Shown here: piece by piece, positions 8,538 through 31,829 of the stretch
Numbering within the stretch: position 1 is the first letter of the stretch
Layout of the letters: every line of letters starts with the position of its first letter
Assembly (NCBI GenBank): GCA_013265495.1
Contig: MU057666.1
Span: 35,933 to 69,668, forward strand
Origin: Vicugna vicugna
Lineage: Eukaryota
Length of the DNA: 33,736 nt
Reading direction: 5' to 3'
Position numbers and translations under genes: made by a program
The notes under the pieces: generated by a model
Databases searched by the model: none
What the model was told of the DNA's origin: nothing
What the model saw: the letters and a program-made list of their open reading frames with translations, nothing else

Positions 8538-9285
8538 GTCAATGAATATTTGGTGAGAACTCGTAATTGCCAGGCTCTGTTCTCAGTGTGATGAACAAAA
8601 CAGACAAAATGCTTGTTCTCCTGGAGTTTATACCCTAGGGAAACCAGAAAGTGAGCAGAGGCATATATGATTTATCAGCTGTTCATAAATGGTATGAAGA
8701 GTGAAGCAAGGTAAGGAGAGTTGGCGAGACACAGAGGTGTGTGCCATTAAGGATACAGCTGCTCTGCTCCTAAGGCTGATTTTGAGTAAAGATGGGAGGA
8801 CAGTGAGGAGTGGGCCACATGGGTGTTGGCAGACGCGCTGTTCTAGAGAGGCCAGCAAGTGCAAAGGCCCTCTGTGGGAGCTGTTTCCCGAGTTCTAGGA
8901 AAAACCAGGATGCCAGCTGCTGGAAGTGGACCAAGCAAGGGCAGGAGTTGGGGGAAACATGGAAACCACGCCCCGAGAAGCCCTGAAGGGCTGTCTGGAC
9001 TTTACACTGAATAAGATGGGAAGCAGTGGAAAGTTCTGCGTGGAGGTCAGAGCAGCTTTTTTTTTTTAAAGATAACTTTGGCTTCTGTGTAGAGAACAAG
9101 TCAAGGGCAGGAGTGAGGAGACTGTTCAGGAGCCGCTCCAGGGATTAAGGGGAGAGCTGATGGAGGCTGTGGCAGAAACAGGGAGAGGCGACCCGATTCC
9201 AGGAATATGGCAAAGGTAGTGCTGCAGGATTTGCTGGTGGAGTAGGTGTGAGCCTGAGAGACAGGAAGATTCCAGGATGAGGAGA
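8538..9285 (-). mobile_element. L2 LINE fragment
   Basis: tcaatgaatatttggtgagaact...tgccaggctctgttctcag...gatgaacaaaacagacaaaat...ggactttacactgaataagatgggaagc...aagataactttggcttctgtgtagagaa is antisense L2. Confidence 0.7.
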
Positions 9286-12255: not shown

Positions 12256-13456
12256 AGCCTCCCTGAACTGGGTTCTGATTGCCTTTTCTCACAGACTATT
12301 CAGTAAGACACAGAATCATAGATCCCAAAAGACGAGGCTGGAAAGGAACTCAGAGCTCAATCAATTGTTTCATTTCACATGGAGGAACAAAATCACCCTG
12401 AAAGCCATTTTCTTGCTTTAGAAAAAAAAGTTTCTCCTTTTTTTTCAACCCAGTGACCTGGGGAGCACTGTGGCTCCAGAAAAGGGCTTTCAGGAACCAT
12501 CAGTTTGGAGGAAGGTGGAGATACAACTTCATCCAGACCAGCCCTGTACTAATCCATTTTATACAGCAGGCTTCTGTGAATAAGGCCTTCTGCTGCTTTA
12601 ATTAAATTGAAAAATGATGGGTCGTCCTTACTTCTGCTCAAATAGCAGACTTGGAAGTCTGCACTAAACAAGGCAGAGCTTCTCATCAGCTGGGAGTTCG
12701 CAGAACATGGCTTTTACAGCCCAGCGGGAAGGTCTGGGGCTGGGATGACTTGTTGCTTCCACAAATGCATTCACTAGATTGCCTTTTCATCACTATTCAT
12801 CACTATAGTAGGATATAAACTGTAGGATAGAAAGAGAGTTACCAGAGCCTTTGATGAAACAATTTTTCAAATAAAAGTTTAAGCTCATTTGAGTTGAAAA
12901 AAGTAGCCACCTTGGCTGTGGGGACCCAACATCAGAGAAATGGCTGGGAAGTTACCATTGTGAGTGTTCTGTCCATGTGTCCTTAAGTGGGCTGCAGTGG
13001 AATTCTTCTTTCCCATCCCTGACTGGTAATGAATGATGAATGAATGAATAGATAGATGGGTGAGTGGATGAAAAAAAAATGTATATTGAACTGATTAGTT
13101 TGTTCTCGGGGAAACACAATTTACAGTCTCAACCAAGCACACCAAGGTTTGCTCCATTTTAACACAACTAAACAAGATTATCCACATTTGCTGGTCATGT
13201 TAAGTGGTGAATTAGAAAGCTTTCTTTGCTTTCAAAACCCCCGTCTTTGTGCTGAGAGCAGTTCTAGTACATTTCTTCTCCCTCTACTATTATGTATTAT
13301 GTACTGTTGATGTACAAATGGCGTGGTTTACAAATTGGTTATGTCAAGAAAAAGGTGTATATTTGACAAGGGGGGAGGTTGATGGAGCAGAAGAGAGACA
13401 GGAAAAGGTCTAGGAAAGGAGTTCAGGGGAGGTGTGCTCACTGCAGACCCTCTTAC

Positions 13457-13583
13457 CTTGCGTGGTCCCATCCAGTCCCATGATGAATTTCACTGATCTG
13501 ATGATTTGCTCTGCTATCGGGGGGCTCATGGATGTAGCATATGCAGTGCTGTGCAAGTAAACCCGTAAATAACCCACAAGGTC
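13457..13583 (-). CDS. SPTLC3: SPTLC3-like coding exon (about exon 9) with a non-canonical (GG) acceptor
   Basis: Translates as [43 protein letters not shown], matching SPTLC3 [43 protein letters not shown], which directly follows ...AGRK. Donor CAAG|GTAAGA is intact; the acceptor reads ttattaaGG|GAC. Confidence 0.88.
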
Positions 13584-18959: not shown

Positions 18960-21029
18960 GCTGTATTGTCCTTAATCTTACTTCTTTCAGACTGAGTCCA
19001 CCTTCTCTCAGAGTCTGAGTGTGTGGATGGGAGCTAATTTGCTTGTGTGGTTCAGAAAGTAGGTCTCTTGGAGTAACTTCTGCAGAGTATCAGGGGAGCC
19101 TCGGCTCCTGGTTTCTGATTCCCTCCTGTCACTCACCCACTGGGCGCCATGAGCAATTAAGAGTTGGCTTTGGTCTCTGGCAAGGCGGGTCTGGGTTGTG
19201 TTTTCCTTTGGGAGTGGGGTGGGGTGGGGGTGTTACAGGTCTCCTCAGACCGAGTTTCCAAGGCCATTAGTAAGTGCAAAACTAGAGCCTAGAGTTCAAG
19301 GACAAAGGTGGCTTTTCTGAGGAAATCAGACAGGAGACTCTCAGAATAAACATCTTGGTGTTCATTGCACGACCCCCATTTACTTCAAAGCGCTGTTTAA
19401 AACAGCCAGGCCTGAGCACACAGGGCAGAGCTGGCTTCTGCCTTGGTCTGTTGCCAGGCTCCTGGGGTAACACTCACTCCAAACCTGGCTGCCCTGCCGC
19501 ACCTCCCTCCTCCAGAACCCCAGCCCTGCAACCCAGCAGTCAGGAGGGTTGCCTTGTCCCCATTCGTTCGCCAGTGCCTGGCCTTGTGGAGGCTGTGAAA
19601 GCCAGTGGTCAGCCCCAGGCAGGCAAGAGGACTCAGGATCCTGCCTGAGACAAATCTGGACCCAGAACCTGGGGTCCACAGTGTCATCCACATCTCAGAG
19701 ACTGGAGCAACACAAATTAAAAAATAAAATAAGGAAACTAGCCCTGTCAACTCAGACTTCCTTCAAAGAAGCCGTTTATGGAGGGGAGCTCTGAGAGGTG
19801 GAGAGAAGTAGGGACCTGGCATTTCACTGAAGGTCTGGAAAGAACGGAATACTTCAAGTTGGGTTGTTCGCAGGTCATCTCCAGCACCTCCAAACTCACA
19901 GGGAGCAAAACAGCAAAACCTTTCTGGCTCTTGAGAGACTGTATTTGCAGGTTCCCTGACGTGGGGAGAGTTGGTCTGGCCAGGGCAGGAAACTCCAAGA
20001 GCAGAGATGAACTGCAGGATGTTTTGTTACTGGAAGGCTGAAGCCAAGACAAAATCTCTCCTCTCTGTTGTCGTATCTTAGCACCAAACCACTTTTTCTC
20101 TTGTGTGTTTCCAAATATATTTTCTTATGTGACACATCTTGTTGCTAATGGGTGCAGTTCCGACCTTGATCTGCTCCATAAAGATTTCTAGAGCCTCCTA
20201 GAAACTGTTACTAGGAATATCGTCCCTCTACCACTAACACGGATGTTGACAGTTAAAAGGAGAGTGAAGAGCTAGGCAGTTTTATAGTTTTCTAGATTTT
20301 TGGACCCAAGTGATTATTTTCAGATCTCAAGATTTACTAGAAACCCTATGAACACTGGAATTATTAAGATTTTGGAGAAATGTAAAGAAAGTCCTTTAAC
20401 ATTTATTTTAAAATATCCAGGAAAAAATATGTATAACGATACTCGGAAAACTAAACTCTAATTATTTAAATATATAATAGGAAGAGTTTTTTCAAACAAA
20501 GATCTTTAGCATTTCCCCAATCCTGCGTCCTATCAAAAGCGTAGTTTACAACAAACTTAAAGTGAGAATTCTTCACAAAATTCTTCAAAGTTCAGGAGAA
20601 TCAAAACTATGATTTAAATTGAAACTACACATAAGTTAAAATTAACATAATGTAACAAATTAAAGGCACAGAGGAGCAGATGAATAAGTTCCATTAACTC
20701 ATAGGCTCCTGAGGCTAGAAGGAAACCAGTTTCCCTGGGTTTATCACAGTCTCACCAAATGATTCCAGACAGGTGTTTACCTGACTGATTTTAAAATCAC
20801 CAGCAAACAACATATGCAGACATTTTCTCAAGGGACCTCCTATCTCGTGCGCATGCACCACATCTTGAAGATTGTTCCGTTTTCTAGGTTTTGTGTCTTG
20901 CTACTTCAGACCAGCAGGTACCAGCTAAAGTTAGTTAAAAGTTAAAGTTAGATCCAGCTAAAGAGCCTCCGCCAAAGGCGCTCTGATTCTTGCTGCCACC
21001 TAGTGGTAAATTCAGAGACTGCAGTGTAA

Positions 21030-21140: not shown

Positions 21141-22973
21141 TGCAGCCCTCTGGGTCCAAGTATGCACAGAATGAGTTTTTAAAGAGCAAAAATATTTTGC
21201 ATACTTTTTCTTCATCCTGATTAATGTAAATAATCACAATTGCTCAGTATCTACCCCAAATCAATAAAGGTTACATAAACAAGAACACATACACTTTTAA
21301 ATTAATCCACCAGACTTCAGGATGGAGTGTACGAGAGAGAACTACACTGAACTGGTCGGAACTTCGGGCTGTCAGGAGTCCTTGTTTCAAGCGGGTTTCA
21401 ATGAAGGAACTCTAAGGGGAAAATTGTGACAGCTACCAAATTTAACAGCATTTCAAGGATCCACTCACTTCAGTTTATTCAGGTGCCTTTGGTTCAGGAA
21501 GTAGAGTTACACTTGGTGAAAAAAATCTGTAGCTCAGAACTGCTGCTAAAGTCATCACAAAACCACAAGCTAACAGAGGAGAGTAGCCGGGGTGAGGGCG
21601 CTTCTAAGTTCGAGACCTTCTGATCCCATGGCTTTGACAGTCGAGGAGAGGAACATTTAACCTCTCACCATATTCAGCCGAGTTCTGTAGCATCCTGGGC
21701 ACCCCTATGTTTTTAGCATCTCCCAGCTAACTCTTTCAGGCCAGAGGGGGGAAGATGAACAACAACGTGCTGAGCTCGGAAGATAGTGATGCTTATGGAA
21801 GGGTGAAGACCACTGAAAGCTCTGGACATTTTAAGCATTTGTGCACCACATGGCAATGTGAGTGGCCACAATAAAATCTGTCATTTTAAACCATGGGCAA
21901 TCAGATGGATTTTGGCTGTACTCCCTGGTTTGTCTAACTGGTTTCCCAAGAGTCTGAACTCCTGTTCCTGCTGGTGACAATGAGTAAGGATTTCAGAATT
22001 TCAGATGAGCCATTAGCCACCACCTGCATGCACTCCTTTTGGGCTGCTGTACCCTTGTAGGTGGAACCAACACCATCCTGACAGTCTCTTGGGACAGGTG
22101 TAGGCCTGTAGAGATAGCTACTAGGATTTGGACAAAACTGTCGTACAAGGGAGCAGATAACTGCGTCTTTTATCCCTCAAACCTAGGTTTTAACATTTCG
22201 TTTTCTTTCTCTCCTTCCCCTCCCTCTTCTTTTAAAATTCTCTTGAACATTTCTTTTATATTGGTAACCCCCTTGGTGATATTGGCACTAGAAAGACAGG
22301 GGTAACAGTCTAATTCCATCAGATCAGAATCTGAAGTCATGTAGATAAGAAGTTGGAAGATGACAAGGCTTGACCCATGGCTTATCCAAAATTGTGGGAG
22401 AGAATTATTTTGCAGAGAAAAATCTTGAAAAAAAGACATTTCTGATCTTGCTACTATTTTGATTAAAACTCTTAAACCCCACAACTTATAGCACAGGGTC
22501 TGCCTTCTTAACACCTCACCTTTGACCACTGTTTCTACCACCCACCTTGTGTTTTTCTTGCCACACAACCAAGCTACTTACAGTTTTGTGACATCCCTTA
22601 TCACTTCTGTGGTGTGATATTCATTATCCCCTCTTTCTGAAATATAACCCCCCCATCATTTGTCTGCAAGACTGACATTCATTCTAAGACTTCTTAGATT
22701 CTGCCCAGCAGAGGTCGTCATCCCTCTCCTTTGTACTAAGTCTGTGCCTGTGAACACAGTGCTGTCTTTTTATGCTCATGTGATCACTCATCACAGGCTC
22801 CTCTGCTCTAACAGAGAGTGAGCTCCTCGACCTTCTGGGCCTGGCTTGGCTGTGACCATGCTGCGGCTACCCTGCGCTGATGGATCGGGGTGTGCTGAGC
22901 TGAACTGGAGCGCTCATGGGAATCACAGAACCCCGAAGACTGCCTTCCCAGACACAAGGGACCTCTCTCTTAC

Positions 22974-23193
22974 CTTCCTTCCAGCTGTGTAACCTCCTAA
23001 GGCTCCAAAGCTTTTGGTGAATGTGCCCATGCACACATCAACATCTCTGGGGTCCATTCCAAAGAACTCCACCACACCATGACCGCTGGTGCCCACAGAT
23101 CTGATACTGTGAGCTTCATCTATGTAGAGGTAAGCCTTGTATTTCTTCTTGAAGGCCACAATCTGGGGCAGACGCACGATGGAACATTCCATA
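22974..23193 (-). CDS. SPTLC3: SPTLC3-like coding exon (about exon 8; PLP-binding region), probably part of a degenerate duplicate
   Basis: Translates as (S)[73 protein letters not shown], matching SPTLC3 [32 protein letters not shown]...[20 protein letters not shown] acceptor at 23195-23194, donor AAG|GTAAGA at 22974/22973, length 220 bp. Confidence 0.9.
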
Positions 23194-23195
23194 CT

Positions 23196-23762
23196 AGAGC
23201 ATAAGCCTCCTGGGACGTGTGGATTCTCATGACCTCTCCCAGGGACTTGAGCACTTTTAGTATCTCTGCCATCTCCTCTTGTTTAGACTGCAGGAATCTC
23301 CCTTTCTTCAGTTCTTTAACCAGAGAATTGAGTTCCTTCCTCAAACTCAGGTTGACCCTCATCATTTTTCTGTAAGTATCAGCGAGGCTAAGTATATTTA
23401 CTGAATCTTTGTCGAACCTGGCATTCTCTACAGATGTCTCCATCCCAGCGTTCTCCTTTTTAGCAGCACAAATCTTGTCAATGAGTTGGCATTTCTCCTC
23501 AATCAGAGCAGCCGGCGTTTTTTGCCAACTTCTCTTCATGTCTTCCATAAAGTCAACTTCTATAAGACGGAACAAGTCTGAAAGTACATAAGACACACAC
23601 CAATAAGCTGATGACAGGTGGACATGCCAATGTCTGCCCTTCTAGGTTCTGGGAAGACAACCATGAACTCAGGCCATTGGGCAGCAGCAACACCACGACC
23701 TCACTCAGCTTCCCAAAGACGAGCCCTAAGCCAAGCTCCACAGAGGACGGCAGCCCCTCCAT
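23196..23762 (-). pseudogene. MIA2: Processed cTAGE5/MIA2-family retrocopy (N-terminal hydrophobic segment plus first coiled coil), 3'-truncated
   Basis: MEGLPSSVELGLGLVFGKLSEVVVLLLP...ISLLVCVLCTFRLVPSYRS*LYGRHEEKLAK/TPAALIEEKCQLIDKICAAKKENAGMETSVENARFDKD...[32 protein letters not shown] resembles cTAGE5 MEEPGATPQPYLGL...RSVRSRLYVGREKKLA...LIEEK..LLEKFSLVQKEY...SEQDELMADISKRIQSL. It is continuous across several parental exon junctions. TGA at 23555-23553; +1 frameshift in the T6 run at 23518-23523. Confidence 0.8.
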
Positions 23763-23900
23763 GGCACTGATCCACCACAGGGCTCTGCCCTGTTACCATG
23801 GATCCCCCAGCCACGACAAGCCCCGGGGAACACACCAACATTCCACCTGGAACCCAGCCAGCAACTGACACCCTGGATTGGCCAGGGATCTTGTCAGTGT
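23763..23900 (-). promoter_or_regulatory. Putative 5' UTR and proximal promoter of the cTAGE-like retrocopy
   Basis: Kozak context agtgccATGG; GC-rich leader (ggcttgtcgtggctgg); CCAAT on the minus strand (ATTGG at 23877-23881); X-box-like GTTACCATGGATCC at 23792-23805. Confidence 0.4.
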
Positions 23901-24188
23901 TGGAGGAAGGGCTGTGTCAGAGGAGAGGTTTGTAACAAAATTGTAATTTTCTCCATTATGGTCATATGGTCATTTTTTCTTCCCTCTTTCCTTTGGTGTT
24001 TATCTCAATACACAATACAAATGAAAAAAAAAAAAGAAAGATGAATGAAGAACCCACAAAAGAACTTTAAGAAAGACAGTATTAATTAAAGCATAGGAGA
24101 ATGCCCCAGGCCCTCCTGTTCAGTCCTCAGGAGCCCAAATGCTTATTTGTGGTGCCTGGAGTGTCCCTGCTTTCTCTTCCCTTAGGGC

Positions 24189-28600: not shown

Positions 28601-29289
28601 TTAAATCCTGACTCCCCTATATTCTATATACAAATAATAATACATACATGATTTATGTATTGTGACATTATTATTGTTACTAATATTGTAACTGCTTTTG
28701 TGGAATTTATTGCCTTCCCAGACTTGGTATGTAGCCTTTCTATTTTAATACCTACCTGAAAATGTCTGATTTGGTTGGTTGCTCTTTTTTCGAGTTTTGA
28801 AAATTGATTTATGTGAGTTGTCTGTGGTGGGGGGACTTTGCCCATTGGGGCAAACCACAAGTCAGAGATAAAAAAGATCTGGGAGGGAAAACTCTGAGGA
28901 GGCTTTGTGTAGACATCCACAAAGTATGTGTCCATAACGTCTCTAAAAAGTAGAAGGGCATTGTGGACCATTGATTTCATGTTTCTAAACCTGACCCCTT
29001 GGAAAGTTTTGTGCGAAATAATTTCATTTTCCGGTGATAGCAGCAAATAAGAACACCCACATGTTCCTGAGCTCTAGTCTAGGCTAGCTTTATTCTACAG
29101 ATGAGGAAACTGAGGCCACAAGAGGTACGGAGGCCTGTCTGAGAGGTGCCTTGTTTCCAGTCTTTTAGGTCACAATCTCATTTAGAGGCAAGATTCCTGT
29201 GCAAGTGACATAAAAGAAACCACTCTGTGAACCACATCCACAGACAGTGGAGACATCTCTCTGTATATAGATCAGGTTGCTTGAGGTGC

Positions 29290-29828
29290 TGTGGTAGATT
29301 GCCCTCAAAGGTGGCTGTCTGCAAGTCTTCCCAGCCCAGTACACACAAGCCAACCCTCCCACATAGTGGTGGGGTCTATTTCCCCTCCCCTTGAAGCTGG
29401 GCTGCCCTGGGGACCAGTAGGGTATGGCATAGTGATGCTGTACCAGTTCAGGGCCTAGCCCTTAAGTGCTGGCAACTTCTGCTTTCATCCTCTTGGAAGC
29501 CAGCTGCCGTGTTGTAAGGAAGCTCCAGCTAGACTGCTGAATGACAAAAGCCTGCAAGACAGAGACAACAGCTTCCCAGGAAGAGGAGGAAATAAGGCAC
29601 CTCAGTTTACTGCCAGTACCAAGAGCCCAAATGTGTGAGTGAGGTCATTTTGGAAGCTCCAGCCCCAGCTGAACACTTCATTGAATGTGGCCCCATAAAT
29701 GACCCCAAGCCATGCCAAGTGGAGCAGAACTGCCCAGCTGGTCCAGATACCACACCGAGGCGTGAGAAGTCCTCACTCACTGTAGTGCCTTGAGGTAGTT
29801 CGTCTCACTGGGCAATCACCACTGCTAG
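29290..29828 (+). mobile_element. MaLR LTR (MLT1F/G/H-like)
   Basis: tgtggtagattg...gtggggtctatttcccctccccttgaagctgggctg...cttctgctttcatcctcttggaagccagctgcc...gtgagtgaggtcattttggaa...gtggagcagaactgcccagctg. Confidence 0.75.
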
Positions 29829-30303
29829 TGAACCCTCATCTGCAGTTTGGTGCCACACTGTCTTGGAGCCAAAGTCCAGACCTGGCTCCCCTGTTCTCCT
29901 GGGATCACAGTAGGACCCAGGCCCAGCACCGCCATTAAGAAGCACTGCCACTGGGGTGGTTTCTCTGGGTAACTGGTGGGGATATTTGACAGTGAACCCC
30001 TGGTAGTCCACTTAACGTCAGCCATGATCAAAGGACTGAGAACCCAACTGCCCTTCAGTGGAGCTGAGTTCTGTTTATGTGCAGTTGGGTTCTGTTTCCT
30101 CTGGTTAAAGGAGCTTCCCTCCCTCAGTGGACCCAGGCCTGGCTGACGGGTGTTTAGACAAGGGCTCCCGTCCCAGACTGGCATCTGGCACACATCACCC
30201 AGGGAGAAAGAACAAGGCTTGAGGTTACAGCAGCCAAAAATCAAGATGAGATTATTTCCCAAAAGGAGCACGTTCAGGGCTAGTGAGTGGCTAAACTCTT
30301 CTA

Positions 30304-30500
30304 CAGCAGGGTTTCTCAGCCTGCACACTTTGACATGGGGAGCCAGACAATTCTCTGTTTTGGCGGACTGCCCTGTGCATTGTGGGAGGTTTAGCAGCAT
30401 CCATGGTCTCTGTCCACCAGATGCCAGGAGTCCCCTGTTGCAGTTGTGTCAGCTGAGAATCGCCCAGCCTGCCTGGGTGGTGCACTCAGGGCTGGTTAGA
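30304..30500. mobile_element. MER20-like hAT-Charlie DNA transposon
   Basis: cagggtttctcagcct...ccagacaattctctgttttgg..gactgccctgtgcattgtgggaggtttagcagcatcc.tggtctctgtccaccagatgccagg. Confidence 0.8.
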
Positions 30501-30585
30501 TCAGCTACCTGAAAGAAATGCTGCTTCTGCTCTCCAGCATCCTTTGCAGCCACACTCCTCCTTGCTGGGAGTTAAGCCCTCATTC

Positions 30586-31245
30586 TGACACAGAAGGAAG
30601 GGGGCCAGGCACAGCCATTCAAGGAATGACACAGAAATTAATATCAAAATGGTGGAAGATTCAACTCCCAGTAGGCCTTGAGGCTCAAGATGGTGGGAGA
30701 TTTGACTTCCAGTAGACCTTAAGCTTCATTATACGCTCATAGTAATATATTAGCATGGTGAATAACATGCCCACAGGCACCAAGGCAGTCCCAAGGCTAG
30801 CCACAAAAGGTCAAAGAGTGAGCAATGGCCAACTTCCTGGGAATCTCAGCCCCTTCCGCAGGGTAGTTGGAATGGTTCTCCCACTTATTAGCATATGAAA
30901 CTATTAAGCCCATAAAAACTGGCAACACGGCATCTCGTGGTCATCTCTCTCGCTCCGTCCTCTTCAGAGACGGCCTGCACTCTATGGAGTGTGTACCTAC
31001 TTTTACTTTAACCTGAGCACCCAACCCCCACACCTCATGGCCTTTCTCTTGCCTTCTGAAACAGCCTATACTCCATGCAGTATGTATCTCTCTAAATAAA
31101 TCTACCTTTACTCAACAGTGGTTCACTCTTGAATTCTTTTCCTGCTCAAAGCCAAGGACCCAGACTTGACAGAGCATGTCCCAGGGGCTCCATCAAGACC
31201 TGGGACATGGCCCTCCTCATGCCCATATCCATTTTTCCTGCATCA
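30586..31245 (+). mobile_element. ERV1-type solo LTR (copy B, same family as 18342-18959)
   Basis: TG...CA ends; shares cccacaggcacca.ggcagtcccaaggcta.ccacaaaaggtcaaag and aataaatctacctttactcaac with copy A; AATAAA at 31095-31100. Confidence 0.85.
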
Positions 31246-31829
31246 CTCCAGAGAGATGATGTGAGTCCTAGGCTTCACACAGGAAGCTCTCGCATTTCCA
31301 TACTGCAACCTTCCACCTGCAATGAGTCCACAAGGTATTTCTTTGAAATAGGACTTGGATGTAATATTTTAAAATTGATTGAATACATTTGAGCAAATTA
31401 CATTTAAATCAGGGTACCGGCAGGAGAAGCAGAGAAAATGTGTGTGAACACGATTAGGGGGTGCTATGTTCTAGGAATCTTTCTTGGAAATCCAAGCATT
31501 AGTGATAGCATACTCTTTGATATCCTCTGACAAGAAAACTAACAATATAAGTAATAAAGAAGAGGAATAGTTATTGGAAATAGCTTCTGTGTAGTATGCT
31601 GTCGATAGTACCTGGCATGATATGGGAACCAATGCACACATCAGATGTCATTTCTCTTCCTTTAACAAAAGCCAGAGACTGATTCTTTAGCTGATGCATC
31701 AGGTTGAATGTGAAATCAATCCATTTCACCAAGATAATACAAGGGCTGTGAAAGAAGAAATGGAAGAGAAAGGGGTCTTCATTTTATTTTATCCTGTGTT
31801 TTCATCTGCAGAACAGGCATAATGATACT

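What the first reader, a model, noticed from the sequence alone, without database searches (positions are those of the whole stretch)
22974..23900. cTAGE5/MIA2 retrocopy fused directly, on the same strand, onto an SPTLC3 exon: candidate chimeric gene
Seen in sequence: on the minus strand, a cTAGE-like leader and ORF (ATG at 23762) runs without a gap into the 220-bp SPTLC3 exon (...cacacgtcccaggaggcttatgctctAG|TATGGAATGTTCC). There is no polypyrimidine tract before the AG, while the exon's GT donor is intact. Established knowledge: cTAGE5 is an ER-exit-site transmembrane coiled-coil protein of the TANGO1 family, and SPTLC3 is an ER serine palmitoyltransferase subunit. Inference: the retrocopy plus the SPTLC3 exon could act as one composite first exon splicing into downstream SPTLC3 exons, i.e. 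a new gene built from a retrocopy and a partial gene duplicate. The cTAGE ATG is exactly 570 nt (190 codons) from the SPTLC3 Met codon at 23192, so the two share a net frame. However, that frame contains stops, and the cTAGE coiled-coil frame is offset by 1 nt at the junction.
Basis: partly seen in the sequence, partly recalled or inferred. Interest (0 to 1): 0.85.

Follow-up and report, generated by a model that had tools for sequence, protein, structure and literature searches.

The report
Dead retrocopy beside SPTLC3 pseudogene exon
A broken piece of a much-copied MIA2/cTAGE5 retrocopy lies just in front of one exon of a decayed extra copy of the SPTLC3 gene in a camelid genome; it looks like a fused gene, and a camel annotation already lists it as one, but here both halves are broken, so it is ordinary genomic debris.

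Summary
On the minus strand, 818 bp of an MIA2/cTAGE5-type retrocopy (24023..23206, ATG at 23762) is followed by 11-12 nt of leftover intron and then a 220-nt SPTLC3-type exon 8 (23193..22974) with an intact GT donor.

- **The upstream half is a broken processed pseudogene.** It belongs to a family with at least 40 scored copies (269 candidates) in this genome. It lacks the family's last ~600 bp and poly(A), and carries a TGA and a 1-nt insertion.
- **The host is a decayed gene duplicate.** It is a third, segmentally duplicated SPTLC3 copy, not the real gene. Exon 7 is deleted, exons 5, 11 and 12 were not found, exon 3 is frameshifted, and the exon 9 acceptor is AG>GG.
- **The frames do not join here.** The coiled-coil frame enters exon 8 out of frame and stops after 27 codons.
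- **The chimera is already annotated in another camelid.** A Camelus ferus Gnomon model (XP_032318232.1, 'LOW QUALITY PROTEIN') maps colinearly onto the window. It keeps five more retrocopy codons, so the tight abutment here is probably a later deletion.

RNA evidence could not be obtained. Verdict: an old, dead retrocopy-in-pseudogene chimera of low interest.

The parts
24024..24035 (-). T12 run (A12 on the plus strand) exactly at the 5' junction between SPTLC3 intron 7 and the retrocopy. It may be an expanded native T-rich intron stretch (the paralogue reads ...ccttcttttcat...) or a trace of the integration.
23763..24023 (-). 5' leader of the MIA2/cTAGE5-family retrocopy. Similarity to other family copies starts between 23932 and 24023.
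   Evidence: 7 of 7 family loci
23206..23762 (-). Coding part of the retrocopy fragment. It has an ATG at 23762, an N-terminal/TM-like piece up to TGA at 23555-23553, an extra A in the A-run 23523-23518 (frameshift), then the coiled-coil piece MKRSWQ...SQEAY (23539-23201). It breaks off about 600 bp before the family's ATTAAA and poly(A) end.
23194..23205 (-). Remnant of SPTLC3 intron 7 (cttatgctctag) with the acceptor AG at 23195-23194. It matches the intact gene's intron end at 11 of 12 positions. The C at 23205 is shared with the retrocopy (1-nt microhomology).
22974..23193 (-). SPTLC3-type exon 8 (pig SPTLC3 residues 305-379), 220 nt. The PLP-lysine motif TFTKSFG is kept. There are eight private amino-acid changes, including G>R in HSIG. 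The GT donor lies at 22973-22972.
13457..13583 (-). SPTLC3-type exon 9 (residues 379-422). The canonical acceptor at 13585-13584 is GG instead of AG; an AG one base upstream would shift the frame. The donor is intact.
12951..13025 (-). Weak match (52% over 25 aa, E 0.004) to the fourth block of the C. ferus chimeric model.
9129..9257 (-). Match (88% over 43 aa) to the last block of the C. ferus chimeric model.
30330..31608 (.). The place where the segment carrying exon 7 is missing. The flanks pair with C11792:6308831 and 6313937, and exon 7 of the intact gene lies between them at 6311285-6311422.

Best explanation
This is a non-functional relic made in four steps.

1. SHOWN: SPTLC3 was segmentally duplicated in the camelid lineage. 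This genome has a complete gene (C11792), a second copy (C11420), and a third, more diverged copy on the window's contig.
2. SHOWN: a transcript of a highly amplified MIA2/cTAGE5-derived family was retrocopied into intron 7 of the third copy, in the same orientation as the gene. INFERRED: the copying was L1-mediated and the insert was originally longer.
3. INFERRED: in the lineage of this genome, a later deletion with one base of microhomology removed the retrocopy's 3' ~600 bp, its poly(A), and all but the last 11-12 nt of the intron. This left the retrocopy almost touching exon 8.
4. SHOWN: both partners decayed. The retrocopy carries a stop and a frameshift. The host copy has lost exons, has a frameshift in exon 3, and has a spoiled exon 9 acceptor.

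Any transcript from here could encode at most a ~140-residue coiled-coil fragment ending out of frame inside exon 8, not an MIA2-SPT fusion protein.
For: - **SPTLC3 copies.** A pig SPTLC3 query finds all 12 exon blocks on C11792:6267494-6435648, residues 197-548 on C11420, and only 7 blocks on C621. tblastn adds a gapped exon 1 on C621, a frameshift inside exon 3, and no match for residues 207-238, 272-305 or 468-548.
- **Segmental duplicate.** The window is colinear with C11792:6286489-6315196 at 82-93% identity, with the exon 7 segment missing.
- **Family size.** 40 of 269 candidates were scored and all 40 matched. 0 of the 39 other copies extend past query position 598, that is, into the exon.
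- **Where the window's copy stops.** 7 of 7 fetched copies stop matching the window at 23205 or 23209, yet share about 600 bp more with each other in all 21 pairs.
- **Processed-retrocopy ends.** All 7 end in an A-run, 5 of 7 preceded by ATTAAA, and their 5' ends are ragged.
- **MIA2 identity.**
- **Paralogues.** Both keep a normal intron and pyrimidine tract before exon 8.
- **Defects in the window.** TGA at 23555-23553 and an extra A absent from 7 of 7 family copies. Exon 9 acceptor AG>GG.
- **C. ferus model.** P0006 maps colinearly in five blocks, four at 85-93% and one weak at 52%. It shares the derived MECS, VGTS and GGYT residues with the window's exon. It also reads AFTNHSG before MECS; AFSNHSG is the family's continuation, and 7 of 7 copies read ...ttcaaaccattcagg at the nucleotide level. 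So the ancestral insert ran past the window's breakpoint.
Against: - Private changes on the window's lineage in exons 8-9 give N 14: S 11, pN/pS 0.38. The numbers are small, the classification is single-step, and my exon 9 slice included a few intronic bases. This is below 1, so the copy may have been constrained for part of its history, or patched by gene conversion (90-93% identity patches among ~82% sequence).
- The PLP lysine motif, the exon 8 acceptor AG and both donors survive.
- An automated pipeline did build an open 298-codon chimeric model in C. ferus.
- The later-deletion step rests on one protein model, not on C. ferus DNA.
- The A12 on the plus strand at the other junction could instead point to an inverted (twin-primed) integration.
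Confidence: 0.8

Rival explanations
1. It is a real, expressed chimeric gene. The retrocopy supplies a promoter, leader and start, and the composite exon splices from the exon 8 donor into exon 9 and two novel downstream exons. This yields an MIA2-coiled-coil/SPT-fragment protein or a regulatory RNA, at least in Camelus.
For: The C. ferus Gnomon model XP_032318232.1 has this exon structure and an open 298-codon frame. The exon 8 donor and exon 9 donor are intact here. pN/pS is 0.38 on exons 8-9.
Against: The model is flagged LOW QUALITY PROTEIN, and its 90% cluster has 1 member, so no second camelid model was found. In this genome the frames do not join, the retrocopy has a stop and a frameshift, and the exon 9 acceptor is GG. 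A 120-residue slice of a PLP fold (residues 305-424 of about 550) cannot form an SPT active site on its own (inference). The host gene copy is otherwise dismantled.
Confidence: 0.06
2. The tight junction at 23206/23205 is the original integration junction, not a later deletion. An L1-mediated, twin-primed (inverted) insertion was primed on the T-run at 24024-24035, with a target-site deletion of about 150-470 bp of intron. The product is still a dead chimera.
For: A12 on the plus strand lies exactly at the end of the insert. The insert lacks its own 3' end, which ordinary 5'-truncating retrotransposition does not produce. About 148 bp (compared with C11420) or about 460 bp (compared with C11792) of intron are missing.
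Against: The C. ferus model keeps five family codons (TNHSG) beyond the window's breakpoint, so the ancestral insert was longer on that side. The paralogue has a native T-rich stretch at the same place, so the T12 need not be a poly(A) trace.
Confidence: 0.12
3. Assembly artefact: two unrelated sequences were joined by mis-assembly.
For: The family is highly repeated, which can mislead assemblers.
Against: Intron similarity to both paralogues continues on both sides of the insert in the right order and orientation. An independent species' annotation contains both halves in one model. 14 of 24 listed runs, from 8 studies and 5 organism labels, hold at least 0.58 of the 118 sampled words of 22850-24100.
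Confidence: 0.02

Closest known systems
XP_032318232.1, 'LOW QUALITY PROTEIN: 8-amino-7-oxononanoate synthase-like' [Camelus ferus] (P0006)
   Same: It has the same two halves in the same order. Four of its five blocks map colinearly to the window at 84-93% amino-acid identity and the fifth (window 13025-12951) only weakly, at 52% over 25 aa, E 0.004. It shares derived residues in exon 8.
   Different: It keeps five more retrocopy codons (TNHSG) before MECS and has an open frame, whereas the window has the 11-12-nt intron remnant and broken frames. It is a computed model whose support I could not see. Its name hides the MIA2 half.
Processed pseudogenes and retrogene families of MIA2/cTAGE5 (the primate cTAGE family; recalled, not tested here)
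   Same: Copies of the cTAGE5-type N-terminus (TM plus first coiled coil) with poly(A) ends, dispersed in the genome.
   Different: The family here is camelid, much larger (269 and 236 candidate places), only 26-33% identical in protein to a carnivore MIA2 isoform, and derived from a short transcript of about 1.5-2 kb.
Classical chimeric retrogenes such as jingwei, TRIM5-CypA and PIPSL (recalled from the literature, not read here)
   Same: A retrocopy landing inside or beside a host gene, on the same strand, so that the two can share a transcript.
   Different: Those have intact fused reading frames, expression and signs of selection. Here the fused frame is broken and the host is a pseudogene.
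SPTLC3 (serine palmitoyltransferase long-chain base subunit 3)
   Same: Exons 8 and 9 are 80-86% identical to pig SPTLC3. The window is colinear with the intact gene.
   Different: This is a third, decayed genomic copy, not the gene itself.

Membership tests
MIA2/cTAGE5 (TANGO1-like) family | Sequence similarity to the cTAGE5-type N-terminus (TM segment plus first coiled coil) | tested here: met
   Window pieces align to residues 1-68 (E 0.001) and 86-183 (E 2e-9) of an 806-aa MIA2 isoform. Profile A1: hhalign probability 97.2%. Of 10 representatives looked up from 133 profile hits, 5 clusters carry MIA2 names.
MIA2/cTAGE5 (TANGO1-like) family | Intact reading frame | tested here: not met
   TGA at 23555-23553, an extra A at 23523-18, and the 3' part missing.
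Processed (L1-type) retrocopy | Poly(A) tail after a polyadenylation signal; ragged 5' ends; dispersed copies | tested here: met
   For the family: 7 of 7 copies end in an A-run, 5 of 7 after ATTAAA, with different 5' ends, on different contigs. For the window's copy itself the 3' end is absent, so this is membership by sequence only.
Processed (L1-type) retrocopy | Target-site duplication and absence of the parent's introns | not tested
   The 3' flank of the window's copy is deleted. The multi-exon parent gene was not located in this genome.
Functional chimeric retrogene | One open frame across the retrocopy and the host exons | tested here: not met
   The ATG frame is closed at 23555-23553. 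The coiled-coil frame enters exon 8 out of frame and stops at 23120. The exon 9 acceptor is GG.
Functional chimeric retrogene | Transcription across the junction | not testable with these tools
Functional chimeric retrogene | Purifying selection | tested here: inconclusive
   pN/pS 0.38 from 14 N and 11 S private changes in exons 8-9. These are small numbers and there are radical changes, such as G>R in HSIG.
Functional SPTLC3 gene | Complete set of 12 coding exon blocks in frame | tested here: not met
   On C621 only blocks for exons 1-4, 6 and 8-10 are found. Exon 7 is deleted, exon 3 is frameshifted, and exon 1 has a 9-codon gap.
Functional SPTLC3 gene | PLP-binding lysine motif in exon 8 | tested here: met
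   TFTKSFG is retained.

The most novel reading that the evidence does not exclude
In Old World camels the same locus is still an intron-containing, open, transcribed chimeric gene, with an MIA2-type coiled coil spliced to SPTLC3 exons 8-9. It would have been born more than 15 million years ago from a retrocopy landing in a duplicated SPTLC3, and it has died in the lineage of this genome. That would make it a dated birth-and-death example of a retrocopy/duplicate fusion between two ER proteins.
Probability: 0.06. Interest if true: 0.45.

Novelty: new member of a known kind. Interest (0 to 1): 0.2.

Why it matters
It matters little for biology. It is one more retrocopy fragment inside a duplicated pseudogene.

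It is useful as a caution for annotation. The same locus has produced a misleadingly named RefSeq model ('8-amino-7-oxononanoate synthase-like') in Camelus ferus, and that model is in fact an MIA2-retrocopy/SPTLC3-pseudogene chimera.

Two side observations may deserve their own look. First, camelids carry at least two apparently well-kept SPTLC3 copies plus this dead one. Second, they carry an MIA2/cTAGE5-derived family with hundreds of places, including arrayed copies.

Tried and rejected
- **RNA and DNA reads.** There is no read-level evidence for or against transcription or the junction.
- **Word-indexed protein search.** With the window's cTAGE-like ORF and longer proteins only, it found P0006 alone among 416 candidates. 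MIA2 was reached only through the exhaustive profile search.
- **Pfam.** It gave no significant family for the cTAGE-like pieces; the best hits were chance-level, below their cut-offs.
- **Rfam.** No match at gathering score anywhere in the window.
- **Earlier findings of this scan.** Nothing.
- **Literature (listings and abstracts only).** No paper on a camelid SPTLC3 duplication, a camelid cTAGE/MIA2 retrocopy family, or this chimera. PMC9604959 (passages read) uses SPTLC3 only as a synteny landmark for a carnivore ERV.
- **Rejected idea.** I first read a 3-nt (CTT) microhomology at the breakpoint. The base-level comparison shows only one shared base.
- **Other failed steps.** get_proteins with a PDB chain id failed and was not needed.

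Full report
**What is there.** Read on the minus strand, the region consists of five parts:
- SPTLC3-type intron sequence down to about 24043;
- a T12 run (24035-24024);
- 818 bp of a cTAGE-like element (24023-23206);
- twelve bases, cttatgctctag (23205-23194);
- a 220-nt exon (23193-22974) followed by GTAAGA.

The ATG is at 23762 and the exon's Met codon at 23192, 570 nt apart and in the same frame. That frame is closed (TGA 23555-23553). The long coiled-coil ORF (23641..23120) is in a different frame.

**The downstream half.** The exon's translation matches human SPTLC2 residues 319-391 (E 9e-32) and Pfam PF00155. Its best database relatives are camelid SPTLC3 and SPTLC3-like proteins at 86-90% identity, then pig SPTLC3 at 86%. 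No protein was identical to it.

**The upstream half.** Pfam gave nothing, and a word-indexed search found only one protein. I therefore built a small alignment from unaltered translations of the window and of family copies (A1) and ran the exhaustive profile search. It gave 133 hits at E<=1e-3. I looked up 10 of them:
- 5 clusters are named melanoma inhibitory activity protein 2 (MIA2). These include an 806-aa cTAGE5-type isoform hit at residues 12-182 and long isoforms hit internally.
- 2 are Camelus ferus proteins.
- 1 is a squirrel hypothetical protein.
- 2 are unnamed.

Direct comparisons agree. The window's two frame pieces align to residues 1-68 and 86-183 of the 806-aa isoform, and hhalign gives 97% probability.

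**It is one copy of a big processed-retrocopy family.**
- The 827-nt query across the junction found 269 candidate places in the window's own 2.03-Gb genome. All 40 that were scored matched, at 77-88% identity. None of the 39 other copies continues past query position 598 into the exon.
- Seven fetched copies stop matching the window at 23205 (six) or 23209 (one). They share about 600 bp more with each other in all 21 pairwise comparisons.
- All seven end in an A-run, five of them about 20 nt after ATTAAA, and their 5' ends differ.

That is the signature of retrotransposed copies of a short polyadenylated transcript. The window's copy lacks that 3' part. Against all seven family copies it also has one extra A (23523-23518), and it has TGA where three copies read CGA, two CAA, one CGG and one also TGA.

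**The host is a dead SPTLC3 duplicate.**
- Exon 8 with its downstream intron occurs three times in the genome (3 of 3 candidates scored).
- Pig SPTLC3 mapped on the genome finds all twelve exon blocks on C11792 (168 kb) and residues 197-548 on C11420 up to that contig's start. On the window's contig C621 it finds only seven blocks.
- tblastn on 120 kb of C621 adds an exon 1 with a 9-codon gap and shows a frame change inside exon 3. It finds nothing for exons 5, 7, 11 or 12. That stretch contains three N runs, but none lies where those exons are expected.
- The window is colinear, in the same orientation, with C11792:6286489-6315196 at 82-93% identity. The 5-kb segment that carries exon 7 is replaced by 1.3 kb of unrelated sequence at 30330-31608.
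- The acceptor of exon 9 is GG here and AG in both paralogues.
- All 25 private substitutions counted in exons 8-9 fall on the window's lineage, against 0 for C11792 and 4 for C11420. The split is N 14: S 11, pN/pS 0.38. That figure is approximate: the classification is single-step, and my exon 9 slice included three intronic bases at one end and eight at the other.
- That ratio is not neutral-looking, so the copy may have been constrained for a while or patched by gene conversion. The structural damage is nonetheless unambiguous.

**The junction.** Both paralogues have an ordinary intron end...catttcttcttatgctccag|catgg. The window keeps only its last 11-12 bases. At base level the window follows the family up to ...gtcccaggaggc and the intron from c|ttatgct, so the two share one base. 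About 148 bp (compared with C11420) or about 460 bp (compared with C11792) of intron are absent.

**The chimera is old and already annotated elsewhere.** One hit, P0006, is XP_032318232.1, 'LOW QUALITY PROTEIN: 8-amino-7-oxononanoate synthase-like' of Camelus ferus.
- Its 298 residues are the cTAGE-like coiled coil, exon 8, exon 9 and a novel tail.
- tblastn places five blocks colinearly on the window's minus strand. Four match at 84-93% identity. The fifth, at 13025-12951, matches only weakly (52% over 25 aa, E 0.004).
- It shares derived residues with the window's exon 8 (C in MECS, T in VGTS, T in GGYT).
- This genome has only one locus with those features, so I take the two loci to be orthologous.
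- The roughly 7-15% amino-acid difference implies a camelid lineage other than Camelus for the window (inference).

**How the abutment arose.** P0006 reads ...SQEAFTNHSG|MECS. AFSNHSG is what the family encodes just past the window's breakpoint, and 7 of 7 copies read ...ttcaaaccattcagg at the nucleotide level. So the ancestral insert extended further than the window's copy.

The join of ...cattcagg to the first base of exon 8 is what splicing to the native acceptor would give. I therefore infer that the ancestor held a longer, sense-oriented retrocopy inside intron 7. In this genome's lineage a later deletion then removed its 3' part and nearly all the remaining intron.

The alternative is an inverted, twin-primed integration with a target deletion. 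It is suggested by the A12 on the plus strand at 24024-24035. However, it fits the C. ferus model less well, and the paralogue has a native T-rich stretch at that spot. Only Camelus DNA can decide between them.

**Function.** I find no basis for a working gene here. The longest ORF a transcript could offer starts in the coiled-coil piece and ends out of frame 27 codons into exon 8. Exons 8-9 alone are a 120-residue slice of a ~550-residue PLP enzyme.

**Novelty.** Literature searches (listings and abstracts only) show nothing on this locus or on a camelid MIA2/cTAGE family. Retrocopy-in-gene chimeras are a well-known kind, and this is a decayed example. Interest is low.

Noticed in passing
G000:C9118:104246-147986; C2580:21117-85885; C10531:18238-24093; C8486:74161-80033: Besides the dispersed copies (84-88% identity), the 3' part of the MIA2/cTAGE-like unit occurs in clustered copies spaced 5-10 kb apart on small contigs, at 73-79% identity (236 candidates, 40 scored). 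This looks like an arrayed, possibly ampliconic gene family that could be the source of the retrocopies.
   Followed up: no
G000:C11792:6267494-6435648 and G000:C11420:9185-118984: This genome has a complete SPTLC3 and a second copy with well-kept exons 5-12. Exon 8 differs by 1 N and 3 S changes, and exon 9 is identical at the nucleotide level. An alpaca 'SPTLC3-like' protein model also exists (P0004). Camelids may have two working SPTLC3 genes.
   Followed up: partly
G000:C11792:6518592-6531476 (+): An inverted partial duplicate of SPTLC3 exons 2-4 lies about 83 kb from the intact gene, near the end of the contig.
   Followed up: no
window 18961-20372, 22303-23205 and 28711-30329: Patches of 90-93% identity to the intact SPTLC3 locus lie among ~82% sequence. 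This suggests gene conversion between the paralogues, with one patch ending exactly at the retrocopy junction.
   Followed up: no
L010 2205-2665 (C11792, intron 7 just upstream of exon 8): The intact gene carries about 320 bp that the C11420 copy lacks at the place where the window has the retrocopy. I did not determine whether this is an insertion or a deletion.
   Followed up: no
P0127, P0128 and P0260 (squirrel proteins): The camelid family profile also hits hypothetical and 'MIA2-like' low-quality proteins of ground squirrels at E 1e-36 to 1e-37. This hints at independent MIA2/cTAGE expansions in other mammals.
   Followed up: no
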